DNA of 64,000 nt, taken from NCBI GenBank assembly GCA_964016885.1, contig OZ024743.1:145886001-145950000 (forward strand), written 5' to 3'. Shown one piece after another: positions 2,896 through 55,450 of this stretch; positions within the stretch are counted from its first letter, which is position 1; each line of letters opens with the position of its first letter. The stretch is from Eledone cirrhosa (lineage: Eukaryota). The position numbers were made by a program, and so were the translations under genes. The notes under the pieces were generated by a model that did not search any database, was not told where the DNA came from, and was given only the letters and a program-made list of their open reading frames with translations.

Positions 2896-2972
2896 TTTTA
2901 AAAATAACTGAAACACATAATCAGTGTATTTCATTAGAAATACAATAATGAAAGACTTAAATCATTTCTTAC

Positions 2973-3361
2973 CTGTAGAAGGGACATAACCGCAGACCAC
3001 CAGTACAAGTGTTTATAAACAGATAAAGTGGCCAACCATACATAGCCATGGCAAATTTCATGTAGTACTTAATTGCACCCAAACCCATCCATCCTTTAGG
3101 CAATACAGTTGAAGAGGACATAGATTCAGGACATCCACCATCATTTATAGAACTCGCATGTGTTGGACTAGATTCACTACTCTCACTACCTTCACCAGAA
3201 ACAAGGATTCGTCCAGTTTCTCTATTGACTGCCTCTCTAGATTTACGACTTTTTGATGGTTGGCTTACTGTTCTGTTAAGAACTAGATTTTTTTGTTGAG
3301 CCTGTCTCCTTTGGAGCAGAAGAAGACCAGCAGCAATATCAGTTGGTACTAAATCAAGGTC
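2973..3361 (-). CDS. DAGLB: Diacylglycerol lipase beta-like, coding exon 5 (gene continues beyond window start)
   Basis: DLDLVPTDIAAGLLLL...YYMKFAMAMYGWPLYLF matches DAGL motifs; TTCCAG acceptor, GTAAG donor; 389 nt, phase 0 to 2. Confidence 0.93.
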
Positions 3362-5088
3362 CTGGAAAATATAAAATAGAAATTCAATATATTCTTTATA
3401 AAAATTTAGAGATTTTGACATGGTAAAACATGAGATTAGACTCACTGAAATAATTTGATATTTAATTCATACAACCAAAAACCACTAACCCTTTAGCATT
3501 CACATTACTCTATATTTACTATTATATTTTCATAGTAAAGGCTTTATTTCACATAATATTGAATCTATGAGATTTTGATATTATTTATTTTGAAAACAAT
3601 ACTTTATTTAACATCAGTATGAGTAGCAAGTTACAGCCGGTTTGAACAGAAGGAGGTGAGAGGATTCTGACCAAATCTGTTTGACAGAAATTTCTCTCCA
3701 CTTTCAGAGCCAAAACATATTTCATGCCTAACCATTTTTCTAATTTTATATAAGAAAGAAAAATCACTCCTTTCCCAAAATATACAACGTTTGTTCTAAA
3801 AAGGTGCTATTTCATTAACATTAGTATTTTTTTAATAACTCAAGAGCAAATTCTAAAATATTCCAAGTTTTAGAGACAATGTAAGGTTAAGAGGACCCTT
3901 AATCTTACTGAGGACATAATGCTGGTGCCACAATAAAAGTATACATTGTAAAGTGGATGGTGTTAGGAAAAACATCCAGCTGTAAAAACCATGCCAAAAA
4001 TGGAACATATGAACAAGAAGTGGTTCTGTAACCCATCAGTCTTCAACTGTGATGACCCATTCAATCTAAGCCTGCATGGAAAGCAGACAAAATCAGTTCT
4101 CTCAATGTTGTAGTTTGATTTAATCCATCTCCAATATATTATGTTAATTTTCTATCAATTCATAATTCACCTTTTATAGTTCAATCAAGACAGTTCCGAT
4201 GTTAAAAAATACATACACTGCTTTACAATGAGTGATTCAAAAAGAACGTTAAGATAAACGAAAAATTTGTCATGTATCACTGAAGTTCTGAAACCAACTC
4301 TTGATTTGGGGTTTATTATTTTCTCTTTTGAATTCTATGAAGAATTGACTGTTTAAGTAATATGAACTCTGGCATATGGCCAAAAATATGTGAGAGGTGG
4401 GCATAGACAATTAAATTTAACCTAGTACATATCTAATAAAAATAAACATAACTACATAGCGTTAAGTATTTTGTCCTGTATTCTACTATTTCTGCGATTT
4501 CACTGCTCTAGCCAGTTTAAGAAATAGAAAAACAATGATTTATAACTTTGAAATAGGAATATAGTTCATTTAATCAAGCCCAATATTGATCCTGGCAGAA
4601 AAGAAAGGAGGATCAATCTCATTAAGATTTCAATTCAGACTGTAAAGCGATGAAACTAAACAAGGTGTTCAGCTTAACACTACCACTGTCCTAATTAACT
4701 TCTAACCCTTTTAATACCAAACCACTTGAAAACACCCCTGGTTCAACAATACAAAACAGTTTATTTTAAACTGTTTATATTTATTAAAAAACCTTCCATC
4801 ATAATCATATATGATGAGAAAGTTAATTATATTTATTACATCCCTCCAAATTCTGGTTTATTTTCAAAATTATTTGAAAATCATAGGCAATGTCTGTCTT
4901 TCATTAGAAATATGATAACAGAAGAATTAAAAATAGTAATTAAATAACAAAGATCCTTTAAAATAGATATAGACAATAAAAATGCAATGCAATGACAACA
5001 TGACATAAAAACATTGCTAATTTGAAATTCATAACAAAAATCTTCCAGCATAAAATCCCCTTTTTTTCTTTAAAATAAGAAAGTTTAC

Positions 5089-8954: not shown

Positions 8955-11145
8955 TGTTTAAGAAGACCTCCCTTTCAAGTAATTTACAATAATATTAATA
9001 CTCCTTGTAGGAAAGATAATGAAAATAATTATATCTAATTTTGACAAAGCCACAAACTTTGCAGGAGAGGTATCTTGATTCAATCACATCCTCAATATCT
9101 TCCTTCAATACTACATCTCCTCCACTAATGATGACTTTCAAAACAATGAACAGTACCAAAGAGATACTTACAAATCCTAAAGAAACTGAACCACTACCCC
9201 TTTAGACATGAACATGCAGCTCAAAACAATACATAATTCCTATTTAACCAATGTTATGATTCTTTAATGGTCTCATGTGGAAACTGTGCACATAATTTTT
9301 AATTCTAAACACCTGATAAACCCCAAGAATTGTTTAATTGTCTCAGAATTAAGTACTGTTTCAATATTTTGGCTAGTATACCTTTTCTATGTAGATTACA
9401 TCTAAGAAATAGTTATTTACCTGATGAGTGAACTCAGACTGACCCACCATCATCATCTATCTTTTCTCTCATCTAGCTACTGTAGAGTCTGATCTATGAT
9501 ATCACCACCACTTGTTATAGCCATCTACTTTCATCTTATTTTTAGTGATTTCATACTCAACATTTAATCAATTCTTTCCTGCATTGTACTTTTTTACAAC
9601 TATTTGCTTATGCAAAGCTTTCCTCAAACTAATAGTTCTTAATAATTTTAATTAAATATTAACTGCATTAACTTCAGCTAGTCATACAGATTGTCCTGAA
9701 TATAATTACTAACAAACAATAATAGTTAATGTAAAAATACACACAAATATTTGAAATGCAATCAAGTAGACATCTGTTTAGATTTCTGCAGAGTTGTTTC
9801 TTCTCTACCTTTCATCATCCTGGAACAATTCCAAGCCTAATGCAGTTATTTTGTCCTACATTTGTTTTGCTAGAACACTAATTCACAATCAAGTGCCAGT
9901 TGTAATTCAGTAATTTGTTCTACTTAAAATATATCACATTATCATTTCAGAAATATTTACTCATACAATGAAAGGTTGACATAACTTTACTTGAAACATT
10001 ATGGTGTAATCTTTCTAGTTTGAGTGCATATTGTGAAAAGATGATTACAATCATCCTCATTTTATATCCACTTTCCATGCTGGCATGAGTTGAATGGTTG
10101 TTATAACTTGAGTCAGTTACGTTTGTCCTTGGTGGGTGATTGGGTGAGAGGACCACATCTGGCTCATTTGTTCCATATTTGGCATGATTTCTATGATTGG
10201 ATGCCTTTCCTAACGTAAACTACTTTATAGAGTGTACTGAGTGCATTTTTATGGCACCAACACTAGAAAATTTGTCATGTCCTCAACAAATCTAAAGCAT
10301 CTTCTCTATTCTAAGTGGTCTCCATTTGATTGCGAACCACTTTACAAAGTGTACATTTGTCATTGCACTATAACTAGAGAGGTTGCCTAGTCGCCTGCAT
10401 AGCTAAGAAATTCTCTCCTTTCAACAAAGTCTCTGTTCTTTGTGAGTCACCATTCTTTGAAGGCAAAACAACATAAACTTTTATTATTTATTGAAGCTCT
10501 AAATGCATAGTAGAAATACAATATTTAAAATATGTCACAATTTTTCATGGTCAACATGAGTAAAACAATAAACTTTTCTTCAACATGACAGGCTAACTTT
10601 GACAGTGTGTATAACACCAATAATCTAGGTTACATACTGTGTACAAATGTGATTGTTGTCATCTCTCAATAAAAGTCAAAGTCAGTCCCACCACCACTTG
10701 ATGATACTGGATGCAATATATTCAACCTTTGCACTGAAGTCTAATTCTGTGCAATATTACTTTGCTATGAGGTACTCTTGCTTTTCCACAATAACAAGTG
10801 GATAGCAAAATCCAACAATGTCAGACAAAATATCTTGTAATTGGTTGTTACATCTTCACTTATCTCTCTCTTTCCTTTATGTTCATAGCAAAGTGAGTGC
10901 CTGGTCTAATTTTAACGAATTTTGCCGAGAAATTTACTGAGATATACATACCATCTGGATATACAGGATATGATATTGGGAGGAGAGGGAAAAGTGAGTG
11001 CAAGTATAGAGTGGTAGATGTTAGATATGGTTGCGGAGAGATTGAAGGAGGTCTAGCCACTCAAAAGTTTGCAGTGATGGAGAGGAGAATACATTATAAA
11101 ACTGGAAGTAGAGGGAAGGATTGGATATGTGCAGGATTAAGAGTA

Positions 11146-11345
11146 NNNNNNNNNNNNNNNNNNNNNNNNNNNNNNNNNNNNNNNNNNNNNNNNNNNNNNN
11201 NNNNNNNNNNNNNNNNNNNNNNNNNNNNNNNNNNNNNNNNNNNNNNNNNNNNNNNNNNNNNNNNNNNNNNNNNNNNNNNNNNNNNNNNNNNNNNNNNNNN
11301 NNNNNNNNNNNNNNNNNNNNNNNNNNNNNNNNNNNNNNNNNNNNN
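11146..11345. other. Assembly gap (200 N)
   Basis: Run of N. Confidence 1.
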
Positions 11346-11649
11346 TAAGAGTATCCCTCTTTAAGTGGGTAGCATTGAGAAAAGCAGAATGCATGAGTGG
11401 GAGGGTGGGTACCAGAAGGCTGTGATTTACTCCGAGTCTGTGGGCAACGTGGTAAAGAGAATCTATTAGAAGAAAGTGAGTAGGAGTGATTCAGATGAGG
11501 GTGAGGGTGAGATATATCAAATAGAATAGTAGAGAGAGTAGGATGGTATGTATAACAGAGCAACATATTAATAGGAAAATTTCCTAACAGGTTTGTATAG
11601 GGTAACTGCTTGCCAGAATGGCCAGATCTTTTCCAGCACCACAAGCCGC

Positions 11650-12080: not shown

Positions 12081-12459
12081 AATGAATTAACTGTTGCCCC
12101 CATGAAACTAGAGTACCAGTCAACCAATAAATTGAATTCTCAGTAAATGTTTGTTGTTATTTTTACTTATAAATTGTGGAGCTGATGAAAAGAGACTGCC
12201 GGAAATATGGATAGGTCTTACCACAAACGAGGGACGAGTGATGTCACAGTAGGGTTCAGGTGACTATCACGGCCTCTTTTCATCAGGCCATAGCCAGATA
12301 CGGACATATTATGATTGTGTGCATGAGAGGCTCTGTAATTCTCGGTCGGATGTAAATTACATAAATCTACCTCCCAACATAAATCCATATATAAATATAT
12401 ATGTGTGTGTGCATGCGTGTATTTGTTCAAATAGTTCAATAACCAAATATAATATTTAC

Positions 12460-12707
12460 CAAGTATGTTCCAGATAAGTTCAGGCATTCCAAGGAGAACT
12501 TTTAGATAGAGGAAATATGGTAGCTTTCTTCGAGGAAACGTGTTGGTAATATTCCCTTTCATACTTATACTGATTATACCTATAGTCAAAATAATGCTGA
12601 TTGAAAGAAGAGTAATAACTCCAATGTAGTATGTCCATAACAGATGTCCATCATTGCAACTGAAGGCTTCTTTGTGGTGATTAAAAACCACAATTATAGC
12701 AATCAAC
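12460..12707 (-). CDS. DAGLB: DAGLB-like coding exon 2 (TM2-3)
   Basis: (W)LIAIIVVF...ISMKGNITNTFPRRKLPYFLYLKVLLGMPELIWNIL resembles DAGLB SMRGTI..PR..LYIRL..PE.VW; TAG acceptor, GTAAAT donor; 248 nt. Confidence 0.93.
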
Positions 12708-13615
12708 CTAAATAACAAAAAGATAATAGAAGTGATCAATTATATTTTTCATAGATATACACAAAATTATCCAAAAAAAGTAAAATAAAACCAGCCATAA
12801 TTTCTTGTGCTTTCTCTCCTGTAACAATTCCTACCATTTTTGTTATTGTTTAGTAAAGAGGAAAAACAGTAACCATGACTCTTTTCAAGGCCTCTGGAAC
12901 AAGTGGGCAGGGATAGGTATCCTCTAAATGGGGACCTGACCCGAATGTTTGCAACACTGCATTCTGCTAAAGGTATCCAAGGCCAAGGAGGTGATATCAA
13001 ACTCAATGAAAGGTTACTTCTACAACTAACATAGGCTATGGTTGTATTTGAACTTAGAACTTAAAGAACCAGAACAAATACTGCAAGCTTGATGCTCTAA
13101 CAATTCTGCTAGTTCACCACTCTAGACAGGCACTTTATTTATTGACCTTGGAAAGATGACAAGCAAAGTTAATTTCAAGTTTAATTCAAGATTAAACAAC
13201 AATCTCCATATTTTTCCAAGTATATAATGATGTCTTGGATTTTAAGGATTTGGGGGGGTGGGGGGGTTAATATCATCTCTAATTGTTTTTTAGGTAATAT
13301 TCCTGAGTTAAGATAGTTATTGAACTTGAAACCTTTATTTTACTGTCTGATCATCTAACTGGAGGACATTAGTGATATCAGAACAGACCAAATGTTCTAA
13401 AAACAATGGAGACAAATGCTTAAATATAATGCTTAAACTTTAAAAACTGTGTTTTTATAAAATATATTTCATATAATCATACAATAACACAAGCACAATT
13501 GTTTCTAATTAGTGTTTTTTAGAGGATATTCAGCAGAAAGGAAGGAATAAATTTGACATAAAAGTAAACAAATTCAACAGCACCTTAAAAGCAATTTACT
13601 TTTCCTTTACTTGTC

Positions 13616-23475: not shown

Positions 23476-23597
23476 AATCTCAACAATCGTTTCTATAGAG
23501 ATAAGTGTAATGCCAGTACATTTAATCAACCACTCCAACAGTTAATAATTAACAATTTAAATGGCTTTCAAACAAATCCACTTTTCATCAGAAAAAA
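23476..23597 (-). ncRNA. Degenerate hammerhead-like motif with expanded stem II
   Basis: CTGATGA (23591-23585) ... GAAA CGATTG TT with a partly paired insert of about 90 nt; downstream tail ends in TA-rich sequence near 23260-23280. Confidence 0.35.
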
Positions 23598-30476: not shown

Positions 30477-30830
30477 GAGTTTACATGGGTGGCCCTATCC
30501 AAACTGTTGACATATGTCTCGTTTTATATATACATGTTATTGGGTTATTGTGGGTGGTTTAGAGACGTGAGTGGGTAGATGGAGAATAAATTTCAATATC
30601 ACAGAAGTGATGAATTGCAAAGAATTGTAAGTGGGATTGGTATAGAATGTTTTTAGATGATATATATATATATGATGATGATTATATTGATGATGATGAT
30701 GATGATGATATATTGCTTTAGTAATTTTCTTTAATGGATACTCAATGCTATATGAAAAAATCGAAACTAGGGACAAACAAATTATACATAGAATCAAACA
30801 TATGTCATTTTCCAAAGTTCACTTTTAAAT

Positions 30831-31135
30831 AATTGTTTCTACTTTTGGCACAAGGCCAGCAATTACTCAGTGTATTACTGGTACTTTATTTTATCGACCC
30901 CATAAGGATGAAAGGCAAATCTAACCTCGGTGGGATTTGAACTCACTTTTAAATAATTGTTTCTAGTTTAGGCACAAGGCCAGCAATTACCCAGTGCATT
31001 ACTGGTACTTTATTTTATCGACCCCGTAAGGATGAAAGGCAAAGTCAACCTCAGCGGGATTTGAACTCAGATCGTAAAGGGACATAACTATGCTGGAAAG
31101 CATGGCGTCCGACCCTCTACTGATACTGCCAATCC
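30831..31135 (-). mobile_element. Tandem SINE family A (truncated plus full) with triplicated target sequence
   Basis: CACTTTTAAATAAT at 30820, 30944 and 31135. Confidence 0.9.
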
Positions 31136-41865: not shown

Positions 41866-44800
41866 TAATAATAATAATGAAATTATTGTGTAAAGTGCTC
41901 AGGTGCACTACAACTCGTCAATATAGTACATAGAATAATACACAAATGCCAGGGAAGTACATGTTTGTATGTGTTAGCTGTAGTGTTGGCGGATCTCGGG
42001 AAGCATGGAGGCCTTAAAGGATGCAGCGTCTCGACAGCTAACAACTGATGCAGGTAGTTTGTTCCATGCTTCAGCAACTCTGAGCGTGAAAAAATGTTTC
42101 CGAAAGTCATGGGAACTGTGCTGTTTTCTTACTTTGTGGGCATGTCCACGTGTGTTAGACACATGGAAATCGAAAAGGCACTCAGGGTTGTTGTTGGCAA
42201 CATGGTTAACAATTTTGTGGGTGTTTACCAAGTCAGTTGCCAGGCGTCGGAGCTTCAATGAATCCATGCCCAGGGAAGCAAGGCGATCAGAGTATGGTAG
42301 ATGCCTGATGGAGGGTATTCGCTTGGTTGCACGTCTCTGAACAGTTTCCAGGCGGTCAATGTCCTGAGCAAGATAGGGGTTCCAGACTGGTGATGCAAAT
42401 TCTAAGTGTGGTCGCACCATAGCTGTATACAGCCTTAAATAGATATCTGGAGAGCGGCTGACAAAGGTCTTGCTGAGTGATGCTAAGACACCCTCGGCCC
42501 TCTTGACAATTTTAGAGACGTGCCTCGTCCAACGCAAATCGCTGCTGACCGTAATGCCCAGGTCACGTTCACAGGAAGACTTCTTGATATTAGTGCTGTG
42601 GAGGGAATATGTGGACGCTGGGTTTTTACTCCCAAAATGCATGGTGGTGCACTTGTCCACAGCTAGCTTGAGTTGCCAGTCTGAGATCCACTGTTGCATT
42701 GTGTCCAGGTCAGACTGCAAGCAAGATCTATAGTGTTCAGGATCTGTCCTTTTTATCTCAAGGTACAGCTTGATGTCGTCTGCGTACTTTAGTACTGTGG
42801 CATTCCTTAAGTTGGCATCTATGTCATTAATATATGCCACAAACAAAAGGGGGCCAAGAACAGATCCCTGAGGTACACCAGATGACATCTCATATGGTGA
42901 GGAATGCTGTCCCAGAACCGTGACTACCTCTCTTCGACTGAGAATGAAGGACTTCAACCAGTTAAAAAGATCATCCTTCACACCCATTGCAGAGAGTTTT
43001 GCCATAAGCCTTTTGTGCGGCACAGAATTGAAGGCCTTCGCAAAGTCAAGGTAAACAACATCCACCCATGAGCCGCCATCAGTGATCCGGGTGATGTCCT
43101 CAAGAAACTCTATAAGTTGATCACAGCAGCTGGAGTTGGGGATAAATCCAAATTGCGAAGGCCGGATAAGACTGTGAGAGCTCCAGAAGTTCCAAAGTGT
43201 TTCTCTGACACAGGATTCCATCAGTTTGGCGATGCAACTAGTAAGACTGACTGGACGATAGTTCACAGGTGATGTGCGGTCACCCTTTTTGAACAGAGGA
43301 ATTACACTGGCAGTTTTCTACTGTTCTGGAGTAGCACTGTTGTTCAGACAGAATTGGAAGAAGCGTGATAACTGGTGTAGAAGGAAGTACCCACCACATT
43401 TAAGAAGCAGGTACGTAACACCATCAAGACCAGGAGAGGCATGGTTGCGTTTATTTTTTAGGTGACGTCGCAGCATTGCAGGTGTAAATTCCATGGTTGT
43501 AATAGAGTCCGGTGTCATAGGTGGTGGAGATGGTACACTCTGGTCTTCAATGGTGAAAATGCCTGCATAGCATTCAGCAATGAGCTCTGCGCATTCCTTG
43601 GGGTCGTCAGTAACCTGGCTTGTGTGGGGATTGCGAAGAGGACCAACTGGAGAGTGAGGCCTCTGCTTTGAGTGAACATACTTCCAGAACACCTTACTGT
43701 CAGGGCTGGTTGCTATGCGCTGCTCAAATTGAAGCACTGCCTTTTTTGTCACCTGTTTGAGGTGGTTGGACGATCTATTTCGCCTCTTCCTATTAATGTC
43801 TGATTTGTGAAGTTTGTACTCACGTTCAGCATTGCGCCGTTCTTTTCTGGCAAGACGGACTGCTGCAGTCTCCCAAATTGCGCTTTTAGGATGTTTTTTC
43901 CGCTTACGTGGCACCGATGCTGCACATGCTGTCCATATTGAGCTCAGGATGTTCTGGAGTACAGTGTTGACATCTCCAGAGTCATAGAACTCAAGCCAGT
44001 TTGGCCGTTGCAACTCGGTGCAGTAACAGTTCCAGTCTGCTCTATTCCAGTCAAAGTGAGCAGTTTGGAGATGGTTGTGGTTTTTGTTACTGCCCATGAG
44101 GGATAGATTGGCAATGATCATAGCATGATCAGAGTCACCTAAAGGTTCCTCAGCAGTAACACTAATGACCGTTTCAGGAGTAGTGGTGAAGAGTAGGTCC
44201 AAAGTGTTGTCACCTCTCGTTGGGGAGGTGACCACCTGGGACCAACTCGAGTCCAGCACCAGCTCAAGGAAGTCATTTGCACTTGGCGGCCAACGAAAGG
44301 TCTCCCAGTCAATCTCAGGGTGATTGAAGTCACCTGCAATGAAAACATAAGTGGCTGTCTTCCTGGCAGCAGCTCTGAGGATATCACAAAGTTGAGTGTC
44401 CTGATGGTAATTTGGGGGACGGTAAACGACTCCAAGTAGCAGTGTTGACATGGTCATACGTATATCGCAGAAAAAAACTTCCTGCTGTGATTGGTTCAAA
44501 TCAGCACAAGGAATTGCCGACAGATTTGACCGAACGTAGACCATTACACCACCACCACGACGATCAATACGGTCTTTACGAAACAGGTTGTAGCCAGTCA
44601 TGCTGAAAACCCCATCACAGAGTAAGGGATGTGCCCAAGTTTCCGTGACTGTAATGAAGTCCGGGTTGATACTTTTGACGTAGGAGTCAAAAAGATGAAT
44701 CTTATTGCATAGACTACGTGCATTCAAGGACAACAGTTTGTACTTTGATTCCAGTCTATGATTATGTGCAGGGGATGGCAGGTTGTTCTGATTTAGTTTC

Positions 44801-45050
44801 CCAGAGTTTTTTCAGTTTCTTTATTGTCAGTTGTTGTGGGTACACTGTTTTCAGACCAGCTGGTGTCTCTTTTCCATGATTCGCCAGCCTTAACAAACCT
44901 CCATATCTGCCCATCATCTCGTAGGCTGAAGCTTTCATGTTCTGCCGAGCTGCGGTTTAGGGAAGCTGCAGCATGCAACTTTGGGCGGACATCAGGTGGA
45001 AGACCAGGACGTGTTCGGAAAGCAATTCCAGATTGTATGGCTTTCTAACG
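41866..45050 (-). mobile_element. CR1-clade LINE: ORF1 C-terminal remnant, near-complete ORF2, 3' UTR and (ATT)n tail
   Basis: APE motifs SLNARSL, ITVTETW, RKDR..RRGGGV, YRPP, GDFN, LDL, SDH; RT motifs NYRPVSLTS, YLDFAKAF, GVPQGSVLGP, YADD; CR1-type C-terminus. Confidence 0.96.
41974..44796 (-). pseudogene. CR1 ORF2 (EN+RT) with one in-frame TAG at 43318-43320
   Basis: ORFs 43318-44733 and 41974-43266 share a frame, linked by PEQ*KTASVIPLFKKGDRTSPVNYRP. Confidence 0.92.
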
Positions 45051-51473: not shown

Positions 51474-51846
51474 TATAATAATAATATACTTTTACCAACA
51501 TTAAAATTCCAAATTAAAAATCAAAAGGTACAATATATACATGTATATATGTGCGCACACACACACACACACATATAACAACACACATATCTATGTTCGA
51601 CTACACAGAAATTAAGCCCTATTAGAAGTTTGAATATTAAAAATAAGCATGGTAATAGTGAAAATAATACTAATACATCTACCCAATATACATGAGGCAA
51701 TAATATGATATAATTACAAGAAACACATATAACAAATAATAAACAACAAAATTATATAATTCAATATAATATAATACATGTATATATTGTACCTTTTGAT
51801 TTTTAATTTGGAATTTTAATGTTGGTAAAAGTATATTATTATTATA
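51474..51846. repeat. 73-bp perfect inverted repeat (51474-51546 / 51774-51846)
   Basis: TATAATAATAATATACTTTTACCAACATTAAAATTCCAAATTAAAAATCAAAAGGTACAATATATACATGTAT and its reverse complement. Confidence 0.93.
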
Positions 51847-52111
51847 ATGTATTATATTGTGTTATATATAATTCCTGCTCTATATAACCAAATTTGTTTA
51901 GATTTAGGTTGGTTGCTTTGGACTATATTTGTAATATGGTTCTTAATGTTATCTACATCCTTAGTTATTCTTATTATATATTTTTATTATTTTTATCTTT
52001 ATTTTCATTTTTATTATCGTATATCTTTGTAAGACATTAGTGTATGTACACTCCATATTCTTCAGAGTTTCTGGCTTGTATCTGCCGATATTACCTCTTG
52101 TTGTTTTGATT

Positions 52112-52149
52112 GCCCTGATGAGTCCTTAATAGGACGAAACATTGTCGGC
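52112..52149 (+). ncRNA. Minimal type I hammerhead ribozyme (HHR1)
   Basis: GCC CTGATGA GTCCT TAAT AGGAC GAAA CATTG TC GGC: intact core, GUC site (cleavage after 52146); followed by AATAAA. Confidence 0.88.
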
Positions 52150-52197
52150 TAATAAAAACTTTTGATGTATTAAAGGATTCTTTGTTTTACTCTCTTA

Positions 52198-52239
<42 letters not shown>

Positions 52240-52386
52240 TTTGAGTATATGTTGGTTGTATACCAACACCTCGATATGCAGATTGGAGCACTCGACGAAG
52301 TGCGCAGGTTGGTTTGGTTACTCCGGAGTAATGTAAAATAAAATAAAATAAATAAGTCAAATGTTTAAAATTTGGCTTCGTTTATT

Positions 52387-52441
52387 ACTGCTATATATAT
52401 TTCGGTGACAGCCATCTTTGGCTGTCACCTCTTCAGGCAGT
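52387..52441 (-). ncRNA. Minimal type I hammerhead ribozyme (HHR2, left arm of palindrome)
   Basis: Exact reverse complement of 52629-52683. Confidence 0.85.
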
Positions 52442-52628
52442 CCGAATTAGTGTGGTAGAGACGAGTACACATGTTGTTGAGGTGTTTAACTTTGTCAATA
52501 CTCTGATATTCCCAGTTCCTGGTTGGGTTGTTGTTTCACTAACCCAACTAGAAACTGGGCATATCAGAGTATTGACAAAGTTAAACACCTCAACAACATG
52601 TGTACTCGTCTCTACCACACTAATTCGG

Positions 52629-52683
52629 ACTGCCTGAAGAGGTGACAGCCAAAGATGGCTGTCACCGAAATATATATAGCAGT
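52629..52683 (+). ncRNA. Minimal type I hammerhead ribozyme (HHR3, right arm)
   Basis: ACTGC CTGAAGA GGTGACAGCC AAAGAT GGCTGTCACC GAAA TATATA TA GCAGT: 5-bp stem I, 10-bp stem II, palindromic stem III; cleavage predicted after 52678. Confidence 0.85.
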
Positions 52684-52720
52684 AATAAACGAAGCCAAAT
52701 TTTAAACATTTGACTTATTT

Positions 52721-52771
<51 letters not shown>

Positions 52772-52822
52772 TACAATTCAATGATATTAAATAAATGGAA
52801 ACTATATTTATAAAAGCATATT

Positions 52823-52883
52823 TATTTTATTATATATATTTCAAGGGTACCAAGACATTGGGATGCTTTCATCAGATAAAATA
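52823..52883 (-). ncRNA. Minimal type I hammerhead (HHR4), stem II partly decayed
   Basis: Minus: TATTTTAT CTGATGA AAGCATCCCAA TGTC TTGGTACCCTT GAAA TATATA TA ATAAAATA; 8-bp stem I. Confidence 0.72.
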
Positions 52884-53299
52884 CAAAGTTTGTTTTATAA
52901 ATAGAGACATACCCATGAAAATCATATCTTATCGGTTGGATATTCACTATATATATATATTAGGGATATCTAACATGCTCTACATATCATGACACACCTA
53001 CACTCCTGAGCTTGCGCCTGTTTTTAACACCAAACATCTTGTCTTTGTATCATGCCAATAGGGTGGAGAGGCTTATATAAAGTGTTATGCAAATTTTGTT
53101 AGGCCTAAAAATTTTGCACTGGAATTATTGTCTTAACTCTACCTGACAATTAGGTGGCAACACATGCAGATCTGATGGGTTGGAAGCATGTTGTCACCAA
53201 CTTACAACTAATTTTAGGCATAAAGTTTTCTTCCAATGATGAGAATTGGTAGCTGGTTAGGTATCTAAGCATGTCTAGTTGGGGAGGGAATTGTTCACA

Positions 53300-54871: not shown

Positions 54872-55450
54872 CAGACCTGCCAACCTCTAAAAACCCAAAC
54901 GGGCAGTACCATGAAAAAAAGTGACCCAAAACGTTGAGAAATGAGGCTAAATGGGGAGATTTTACATAATTGTTTCTACTTTAGGCACAAGGCCAGCAAA
55001 TACCCAGTACATTACTGGTACTTTATTTTATCGACCCCGTAAGGATGAAAGGCAAAGTTAACCTCGGCGGGATTTGAACTCAAACTGTAAAGGGACGTAA
55101 CTATGCTAGAAAGCAGTGCGTACAACCCTCTACTGATACTGCCAATTCACCGCCCTAGAGGGGAGATTTTACATAATTGTTTCTACTTTTGGCACAAGGC
55201 CAGCAATAATCCAGTACATTACTGGTACTTTATTTTATCGACCCCCGTAAGGATGAAAGGCAAAGTTAACCTCGGCGGGATTTGAACTCAGACCGTAAAG
55301 GGACGTAACTATGCTAGAAAGCATGGCAGCCAACCCTCTACCGATACGGCCAAATGAAAGCTATACCCATTTTCACAAGAAATCCATCTCTCATCCACCC
55401 AAAAGTGGGTGGGAGATTTCCCCGTCGGACGGGGAGAGTTGACGGGTCTG
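54872..55450. mobile_element. hAT-like MITE inside the Merlin relic, carrying two SINEs
   Basis: TIRs CAGACCTGCCAAC / GTTGACGGGTCTG; no TSD seen. Confidence 0.55.
54968..55353 (-). mobile_element. Two tandem SINE family A copies
   Basis: Left copy flanked by 18-bp TSD GGGGAGATTTTACATAAT (54953-54970, 55160-55177). Confidence 0.92.

What the first reader, a model, noticed from the sequence alone, without database searches (positions are those of the whole stretch)
52112..52883. Four hammerhead ribozyme motifs in about 770 bp, as two convergent pairs aimed at (TA)n tracts
Seen: HHR1(+,52112) and HHR2(-,52387) flank (TA)n 52199-52236; HHR3(+,52629) and HHR4(-,52823) flank (TA)n 52727-52772. Each has CTGAnGA-stem II-GAAA-tiny stem III-UH closed by stem I, then an AATAAA-like hexamer and a short tail running into TA repeats. 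The three distinct sequences differ in stems I and II yet keep pairing, so they look like separate families. Established: Penelope-like elements (PLEs) carry minimal type I HHRs with palindromic stem III in their pLTRs, thought to cleave as dimers; retrozymes are non-autonomous HHR-bearing retroelements. Inference: a system of short non-coding ribozyme retroelements that target (TA)n in either orientation and pile up at one site. No PLE RT or GIY-YIG ORF is in the window.
Basis: partly seen in the sequence, partly recalled or inferred. Interest (0 to 1): 0.9.

Follow-up and report, generated by a model that had tools for sequence, protein, structure and literature searches.

The report
Stacked Penelope retrotransposon ends with hammerheads
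The four hammerhead ribozyme motifs are real, but they belong to three stump copies of Penelope-like jumping genes that sit side by side in TA repeats, a known kind of element with over 100,000 such motifs in this genome, and many of the short stumps are likely copies of just the capped front end of the element's RNA.

Summary
All four type I hammerhead motifs (HHRs), both (TA)n tracts and the predicted cut sites are present as described. They are three insertions, not four elements. HHR2 and HHR3 are the two arms of one 192-bp head-to-head fold-back. Each of the three families links to an RT + GIY-YIG frame elsewhere in the genome that bears the motifs of the Hydra clade of Penelope-like elements (PLEs). 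Family A has 9 open frames of 913-954 aa among 150 scored. Hydra PLEs with HHRs and (TA)n targeting are published, including an octopus family. The convergent pairs arise because fold-back insertions point a 3' end outwards on both sides. Not found in my literature searches: at least 105,000 HHR cores in 3.0 Gb; two fixed 3' ends about 100 nt apart, one of each in 39 of 42 classifiable inverted pairs; and 5' ends piling up at one site upstream of the HHR with an extra G (2,557 G against 783 A, family D). This suggests short copies are cDNAs of the capped, uncleaved RNA leader, primed twice and joined head to head. Short and long copies mix on one tree, so a separate non-autonomous lineage is not supported. 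Ribozyme cleavage is untested.

The parts
51474..51776 (-). Family A insertion, inverted 5' piece (3' UTR sequence in antisense; 73 nt duplicated with the sense piece)
   Evidence: blastn to full-length L071/L072; perfect 73-nt inverted repeat 51474-51546 / 51774-51846
51769..52198 (+). Family A insertion, sense piece: end of 3' UTR / pLTR, ending at the short (tail-less) 3' end, +51 from the cut site
   Evidence: 95-99.5% to L071-L078; 40 of 40 scored copies 100% identical over 52040-52198; ends
52112..52149 (+). HHR1: 3-bp stem I (extendable to 52103-52159), core 52115-52121, stem II 52122-52135, palindromic stem III 52139-52145, predicted cut after 52146
   Evidence: scan, fold; 583 exact copies of a 47-mer across the core
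52198..52236 (.). (TA)n tract between insertions A and B
52237..52540 (-). Family B insertion, left arm with the long 3' end (about 100-nt tail, 52237-52340); 5' end 104 nt upstream of the core
52286..52329 (-). Tail hairpin motif (ACTC...GAGTGCT) shared by families B, C, C2, D and F, between the two 3' end sites
   Evidence: alignment A2, consensus fold, coordinates
52387..52441 (-). HHR2, same sequence as HHR3; predicted cut after 52392
52541..52727 (+). Family B insertion, right (inverted) arm with the short 3' end; 5' end 93 nt upstream of the core
52629..52683 (+). HHR3: 5-bp stem I, 11-bp stem II, palindromic 8-nt stem III, predicted cut after 52678
52726..52773 (.). (TA)n tract between insertions B and C
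52774..52947 (-). Family C insertion, solo 174-bp copy with the short 3' end; 5' end about 73 nt upstream of the core, then a short TA run (52948-52960)
52823..52883 (-). HHR4: 8-bp stem I, partly decayed stem II, palindromic 8-nt stem III, predicted cut after 52831

Best explanation
The cluster is three truncated insertions of Penelope-like retrotransposons with Hydra-clade features, side by side in (TA)n repeats, and short fold-back copies like the middle one likely arise when the element's enzyme primes reverse transcription twice on the RNA's capped leader and joins the two cDNAs head to head. Shown: three insertions; three families, each linked to an RT + GIY-YIG frame; two fixed 3' ends about 100 nt apart; one of each end in most inverted pairs; 5' ends piling up at one site in families D and B (a broader pile-up in C, none in A); an excess of G before that site; and copies that read through the HHR cut site. 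Inferred: (1) the pile-up site is the transcription start in the pLTR and the G is a copy of the cap; (2) the endonuclease nicks both strands of (TA)n and each nick primes at one of two internal RNA sites, as shown in vitro for a lizard PLE (PMC11167929); (3) the two cDNAs are joined through short ATAT or cap-C matches; (4) the HHRs are silent as monomers, would cut only as dimers or with protein help, and were uncut in the copied templates. Identity as Hydra-type PLE ends: about 0.95. Leader-copy mechanism: about 0.65. For the window's own B copy (5' ends 18 and 29 nt short of the pile-up site) a leader copy cannot be told from an ordinary 3'-end truncation.
For: Full-length family A elements with 915-916 aa open frames between direct pLTRs, 9 frames of 913-954 aa among 150 scored. 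RWR, DKT, YRDD, CxCx5C, CxxC and CxH motifs match the Hydra definition; the C-terminal part matches GIY-YIG clusters at 0.95-0.96. Family B frame pieces lie upstream in L076; family C pieces in L053 and L069. 3' ends are bimodal in all well-sampled families except E. Inverted pairs: 39 long+short, 3 short+short, 0 long+long, 6 with one arm unclassified, of 48. Family D 5' ends: 24 of 55 at 67-71 nt upstream of the core. Family B: 15 of 42 at 117-124 nt, at the same TCATATG word. Whole genome, base before the family D site: G 2,557, A 783, with background G 17.7% and A 32.3%. In 13 of the first 30 G loci the G is not templated by either arm, and in 5 more it is a single base between two arms that both start at the site. 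Some partner arms hold only tail sequence absent from the G arm (L263, L271), so the second arm is not a fold-back copy of the first. 0 of 30 unbiased family A copies start at the cut site. Short and long D copies mix: 14 label changes against 14.4 shuffled.
Against: No RNA data place a transcription start or a cap at the pile-up site. Family A, the youngest, shows no 5' pile-up (13 of 30 extend over 480 nt). In 9 of 30 G loci the partner arm could supply the G, and 3 are restart duplications. The site begins with ATAT, which can also anneal to the (TA)n target; T precedes it in about 44 of the first 100 D places and 53 of the first 100 B places (counted by eye). The B and C samples were selected to have at least 85 and 55 nt upstream, and the C2 test failed on a poor reference. 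Pfam gave no RT or GIY-YIG hit for the family A protein itself; only 3 and 1 of 17 aligned members hit GIY-YIG and RVT_1, weakly. Clade placement rests on motifs and by-eye comparison with printed sequences, not on a tree.
Confidence: 0.8

Rival explanations
1. The short copies are ordinary 5' truncations of cDNA primed at the 3' copy of the pLTR, and the pile-up reflects annealing of an ATAT word to the (TA)n target or to the other arm, not a transcription start.
For: Many ends at the site join (TA)n directly or form perfect palindromes. Family A shows broad truncation. 5' truncation with an inverted copy is the textbook PLE form (PMC8557442).
Against: Other ATAT-like words in the same reference are not hot spots (1 of 55 copies ends at -23). 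Microhomology to (TA)n does not predict G, which is 3.3 times as common as A and untemplated in 13 of 30 loci.
Confidence: 0.25
2. The short HHR elements are a self-propagating non-autonomous family (SINE- or retrozyme-like) that borrows PLE enzymes.
For: Short copies are very numerous and non-coding; long-ended leader copies would hold the start site and both RT start sites; retrozymes are argued to derive from PLE pLTRs (bioRxiv 2026.07.22.740005).
Against: Short and long D copies share identical sequences and do not cluster. Junctions differ from copy to copy. Head-to-tail arrays of 150-450 nt, which define non-LTR retrozymes (PMC7229834), are absent at this locus. Only family D was tested on a tree.
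Confidence: 0.1
3. Head-to-head copies form by self-priming on an antisense template, as proposed for rotifer Penelope elements.
For: Palindromic junctions are common; arms within a pair are more alike than arms of different pairs (97.0% against 93.3%, 18 pairs); PMC3846280.
Against: It does not predict one long and one short end per pair (39 of 42), a G on the sense strand at a fixed site, or partner arms with no overlap. Arm likeness is also expected if both templates come from one source locus.
Confidence: 0.1

Closest known systems
Hydra clade of C-terminal EN+ Penelope-like elements (Craig et al. 2021, PMC8557442), including Hydra-1_Obim of Octopus bimaculoides
   Same: Single RT + C-terminal GIY-YIG frame; RWK-type, DKT, CxCx5C, CxxC and CxH motifs; HHR near the 3' end with palindromic stem III; (TA)n insertion; inverted 5' copy and optional tail.
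   Different: Described there as a small number of families, generally under 3 kb, with 30-40 bp tails for PLEs in general. Here at least 8 HHR families, over 105,000 HHR cores, a family A unit of about 4.85 kb with a longer frame, and tails of about 90-105 nt.
Poseidon PAc of Anolis carolinensis (Frangieh et al. 2024, PMC11167929)
   Same: Two internal RT start sites that bound the tail; both strands nicked in AT-rich DNA; HHR cleavage not needed for insertion.
   Different: PAc is Penelope/Poseidon clade; its HHR overlaps the start codon and the RT starts lie inside the ORF. Here both sites lie in the 5' UTR, about 100 nt apart. In the parts I read, that paper reports no cap-like G or pairing rule for inverted arms.
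Minimal type I HHRs of metazoan PLEs (Cervera and De la Pena 2014, PMC4209133)
   Same: Minimal core, small palindromic helix III, predicted dimer activity; dual HHRs 100-700 bp apart on opposite strands were already noted in Schistosoma.
   Different: Counts there are thousands per genome (about 9,000 in Xenopus tropicalis). Families C and D here have A-U rather than G-C at the base of stem II.
Non-LTR retrozymes (Cervera and De la Pena 2020, PMC7229834)
   Same: Short, non-coding, type I HHR, very high copy number (up to 120,000 in axolotl).
   Different: Retrozymes are head-to-tail arrays of 150-450 nt monomers with canonical HHRs and circular RNAs; these are solo or head-to-head copies continuous with ORF-bearing elements.

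Membership tests
Hydra-clade PLE | Single ORF with RT and C-terminal GIY-YIG endonuclease | tested here: met
   915-aa frame with YRDD; residues 755-905 match GIY-YIG clusters at 0.95-0.96; Pfam weak or absent
Hydra-clade PLE | RWK motif and DKG changed to DKT | tested here: met
   RWR and DKT in family A; RWK/RWR and DKT/DKS in homologues; definition
Hydra-clade PLE | CxCx5C linker, CxxC and CxH around conserved E and N | tested here: met
   Present in families A and B and in aligned homologues
Hydra-clade PLE | Absence of the CCHH zinc finger in the endonuclease | tested here: inconclusive
   No such conserved pattern seen by eye in alignment A1; no reference CCHH sequences were aligned
Hydra-clade PLE | Insertion into (TA)n | tested here: met
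   21 of 27 background HHRs have the first (TA)4 at +35-60 or +128-165, against 6.5% of control positions
Hydra-clade PLE | HHR in the pLTR, direct and inverted pLTRs, optional tail | tested here: met
   L071/L072 direct pLTRs, L073-L075 and L078 inverted; tail about 100 nt
Hydra-clade PLE | Phylogenetic placement within Hydra | not tested
   No reference clade sequences were held as tool data; compared by eye with Hydra-1_Obim as printed in the supplement
Type I minimal hammerhead ribozyme | CUGANGA and GAAA core with stems I and II and covariation | tested here: met
   33 C-like sequences: 96.0% paired, 9 pairs with both sides changed, 8 of 10 in stem II; rows had been selected for at least 3 bp in stems I and II
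Type I minimal hammerhead ribozyme | Self-cleavage as monomer or dimer | not testable with these tools
   Stem III does not fold as a monomer; dimer duplex -2.3 and -3.2 kcal/mol for the window's two stem III types
Non-LTR retrozyme | Head-to-tail tandem monomers of 150-450 nt, each with an HHR | tested here: not met
   No such array at the locus; close family A pairs are divergent 17, direct 2 (4.8 kb apart), convergent 0
Non-LTR retrozyme | Non-autonomous lineage separate from coding elements | tested here: not met
   Family D short and long copies intermix; families A, B and C link to ORFs
Non-LTR retrozyme | Expressed circular RNA | not testable with these tools
   No run on record as RNA holds the sequence

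The most novel reading that the evidence does not exclude
Thousands of genomic fossils record how Penelope-like elements make head-to-head copies: both nicked strands of a (TA)n target prime on the capped, ribozyme-uncut 5' leader at two fixed sites set by conserved hairpins, each cDNA can run to the cap and copy it as a G, and the two are joined end to end. This would answer the open question of inverted pLTR formation without an antisense template, and it has filled this genome with 100,000-200,000 hammerhead motifs.
Probability: 0.55. Interest if true: 0.72.

Novelty: new member of a known kind. Interest (0 to 1): 0.48.

Why it matters
The locus itself is ordinary for this genome: one 10-kb stretch among 40 picked at round coordinates holds a similar four-HHR stack. 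Its value is as an entry point. How PLEs form head-to-head inverted ends was left open in 2013 (PMC3846280) and later steps remain unvalidated in the 2024 in vitro work (PMC11167929). The fixed 5' site with an extra G and the one-long-one-short rule give exact, testable predictions for RNA mapping and for an in vitro reaction, and a very young family with open frames is at hand. The HHR load (at least 105,000; sample estimate 200,000) rivals the 120,000 reported for axolotl, whose genome is much larger (size recalled). The many fold-back copies would give long double-stranded RNA if read through (inference).

Tried and rejected
Rfam gathering scan: 0 hits. Pfam on the family A and B proteins: no RT or GIY-YIG hit. 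PDB sequence searches with two profiles: 0 hits. No structure model was obtained, so the RT fold was not checked by structure. No RNA holder listed; three guessed-RNA runs laid nothing and one run of unknown kind covered the stretch as contigs; no evidence either way. A truncation hot spot at the HHR cut site as a fossil of cleavage in vivo: rejected, 0 of 30 start there, nearest 5 and 7 nt upstream. Naiad membership: rejected, the endonuclease is C-terminal and the HHR is complete. All-against-all 5' extent mapping was confounded by fold-back arms and was replaced by mapping to one long reference. The C2 test failed because 6 of 21 copies left the reference after 10 nt. Excess stacking of different families: 2 of 30 against 0.6 expected, not significant. 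Covariation in the tail hairpin is weak: the four core pairs barely vary, 2 of 7 pairs show a double change. Dimerisation between HHR2 and HHR3 in one transcript: rejected, they are on opposite strands and read-through would form a 188-bp hairpin. The host gene near the locus was not identified. Look-ups of earlier findings by place and by a first word set returned nothing.

Full report
Observation. The window is G000:C4:145886001-145950000 of a 3.0-Gb animal genome. A structural scan (core, stem II of at least 3 bp, stem III, stem I of at least 3 bp) finds the four motifs at CTGA positions 52115 (+), 52436 (-), 52634 (+) and 52875 (-), plus one weak hit at 23591; 30 shuffles gave none. The (TA)n tracts are at 52198-52236 and 52726-52773. 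Rfam finds nothing.

Three insertions. HHR2 and HHR3 are the arms of one inverted duplication, 192 nt at 96%. The left arm carries about 100 nt more at its 3' end, as do many other copies. The cluster is therefore A (51474-52198, itself with a 5' inversion and a 73-nt duplication), B (52237-52727) and C (52774-52947). The order of arrival is not known.

Each family has a coding parent. Family A: all 40 scored copies are 100% identical over 159 nt; a 22-mer after the cut site has 790 exact copies and a 47-mer across the core 583, controls 0. L071 and L072 hold 915- and 916-aa open frames between direct pLTRs 4.85 kb apart; 9 of 150 scored endonuclease matches lie in frames of 913-954 aa. Family B: L010/L076 continues upstream into a broken RT and endonuclease frame. 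Family C: L053 and L069 hold inverted RT and endonuclease pieces. No such frame is in the window. The family A protein has RWR, DKT, YRDD, CxCx5C, CxxC and CxH, the features by which PMC8557442 defines the Hydra clade (section 11 read whole). Its supplement lists Hydra-1_Obim from Octopus bimaculoides with an HHR and (TA)n preference. The C-terminal part matches GIY-YIG clusters; Pfam support is weak. A homologue search returned 801 proteins, the best named ones from Solemya velum and Argonauta hians (44%). I infer an octopod host from that and from a SINE I recall; this was not tested.

Why the pairs look convergent. Among the first 100 of 790 family A places, pairs within 6 kb are 17 divergent, 2 direct and 0 convergent. 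A fold-back insertion presents a 3' end at both borders, so any neighbour across a TA tract faces it. The pattern recurs: L147, one of 40 stretches of 10 kb taken at round coordinates, holds four HHRs in about 500 bp. Excess stacking was not significant (2 of 30 against 0.6).

Abundance and targeting. The 400-kb sample holds 27 HHRs, against 1 in 10 Mb of shuffles, which gives 2.0e5 for the genome (bootstrap 0.9-3.4e5). Whole-genome counts of two core patterns give 81,670 and 22,805 (reversed controls 193 and 1); with family A this is at least 105,058. These are pattern matches, not tested ribozymes. In 21 of 27 background HHRs the first (TA)4 lies at +35-60 or +128-165 from the cut site, against 6.5% of control positions; the windows were chosen after seeing the data.

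The ribozymes. 172 motifs from the loci then held fall into at least 8 families; stem III is palindromic or nearly so and covaries between families (ATATATAT, ATGCGCAT, ACATTGT, ACCACTGGT), family E being the exception. In 33 C-like sequences (33 of 37 candidates; three with an insertion in stem II and one from another family were left out) 96.0% of cells pair and 9 pairs change on both sides. Stem III cannot fold in a monomer and gives weak dimer duplexes, in line with PMC4209133 (parts 1-2 of 4 read). None of 30 unbiased family A copies starts at the cut site, so those templates were uncut or re-joined there. PMC11167929 (parts 1-2 of 4 read) found likewise that HHR cleavage is protein-assisted and not needed for insertion.

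Two 3' ends. All well-sampled families except E end at about +38-60 or +130-160. For family A: 17 of 30 at +51-55, 8 at +154, 5 broken by indels. In direct tandems the long end runs on into the 5' UTR and start codon. This matches the two internal RT starts that bound the tail in PMC11167929. Of 48 inverted pairs, 39 have one long and one short arm, 3 two short, 0 two long, 6 one unclassified arm. Between the two sites, five families share an ACTC...GAGTGCT hairpin, and a second hairpin with an AC-rich 3' arm precedes the long end in A, B, C, C2 and D (not captured by the consensus fold).

A fixed 5' end with an extra G. In family D, abundant here though not in the window, 24 of 55 unbiased copies start 67-71 nt upstream of the core. 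In family B, 15 of 42 start at 117-124 nt, at the same TCATATG word; in family C, 18 of 25 start at 65-90 nt; both samples were biased towards a minimum length and B holds a few duplicate rows. Family A shows no pile-up. Long copies have C before the D site. Genome-wide, G precedes it 2,557 times and A 783 times, where composition predicts 35% G of the two. Of the first 30 G loci, 13 have a G templated by neither arm, 5 a single G between two arms that start at the site, 9 a G the partner arm could supply, and 3 a restart duplication; 26 have an HHR 66-70 nt downstream. By eye, the first 100 B places give G 32, A 15, T 53. An extra 5' G as a copy of the cap is known from L1 insertions (recalled). 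The Penelope promoter and start site lie in the pLTR (PMC2377424, passages). I infer that the short copies are cDNAs of the capped leader.

Against a separate non-autonomous family. 48 short and 20 long D copies need 14 label changes on a tree against 14.4 shuffled, and four sets of identical rows span both groups. Junctions vary between copies. Arms of a pair are 97.0% alike against 93.3% between pairs (18 pairs), which fits one source per insertion.

Comparison with what is known. Structure, HHR, tail and (TA)n targeting are all described for Hydra PLEs (PMC8557442: passages, section 11, supplement part 2 and search hits). Opposite-strand HHR pairs 100-700 bp apart were noted in 2014. Retrozymes differ in being head-to-tail arrays (PMC7229834, passages; bioRxiv 2026.07.22.740005, part 1 of 5). 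PMC3846280 (passages) attributes head-to-head junctions to self-priming on an antisense template and leaves the matter open. Eight searches found no paper on HHR numbers in cephalopods (0 papers) and no use of 'non-templated G' in the 20 papers listed. An Octopus vulgaris repeat annotation lists 31 recently active PLE families and does not use the word ribozyme (PMC13282606, passages); the giant squid paper counts 235 Rfam hammerheads (PMC6962438, passages). Subscription papers and bioRxiv supplements were not searchable and may bear on novelty. Three earlier AI notes from other genomes report short PLE copies that start or fold next to the HHR and mirror arms built anew; they are leads, not support.

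Verdict. The thing is a new set of members of a known kind. Interest 0.48 rests on the scale and on the testable leader-copy mechanism, which I put at about 0.55-0.65.

Noticed in passing
genome-wide: At least 105,000 exact HHR core patterns and about 200,000 by sampling, in at least 8 families.
   Followed up: yes
L147:4338-4841: A second four-HHR stack (family D pair next to a family B pair) in about 500 bp, found in a stretch picked at round coordinates.
   Followed up: partly
families B, C, C2, F stem II (window 52634-52669 and 52839-52875): A C-C mismatch after the third pair of stem II recurs across families; the window's B arms both close it with a G. Possible tertiary contact.
   Followed up: no
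tails of families A-F; window 52286-52329 (-): Conserved hairpin just after the short 3' end; family A has a G-C in place of the outer A-U pair, as does the printed coral Hydra-2_Amil sequence (by eye).
   Followed up: partly
L058, L068, L075, L143, L153, L155: HHR family E with a non-palindromic stem III and no short 3' end class; parent element not looked for.
   Followed up: no
window 45271 (-) and 23591 (-): One decayed HHR-like core resembling family A and one weak, probably chance, hit.
   Followed up: no
window 41974-44811 (-): LINE with AP endonuclease and RT frames (Pfam Exo_endo_phos, RVT_1), split by one stop.
   Followed up: partly
window 12218-12739 and 2969-3466 (-): Frames that look like exons of a membrane lipase gene (diacylglycerol lipase alpha-like, recalled); Pfam and the Atlas gave no name, and no exon was found near the HHR cluster.
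   Followed up: partly
window 30819-31069 and 54953-55353: Tandem copies of a SINE-like repeat that I recall from octopus genomes.
   Followed up: no
window about 11140-11350: A run of N, seen as X in translations.
   Followed up: no
L030 and other family B long ends: Variable A-runs (23 A in L030) between the long 3' end and the TA target.
   Followed up: no
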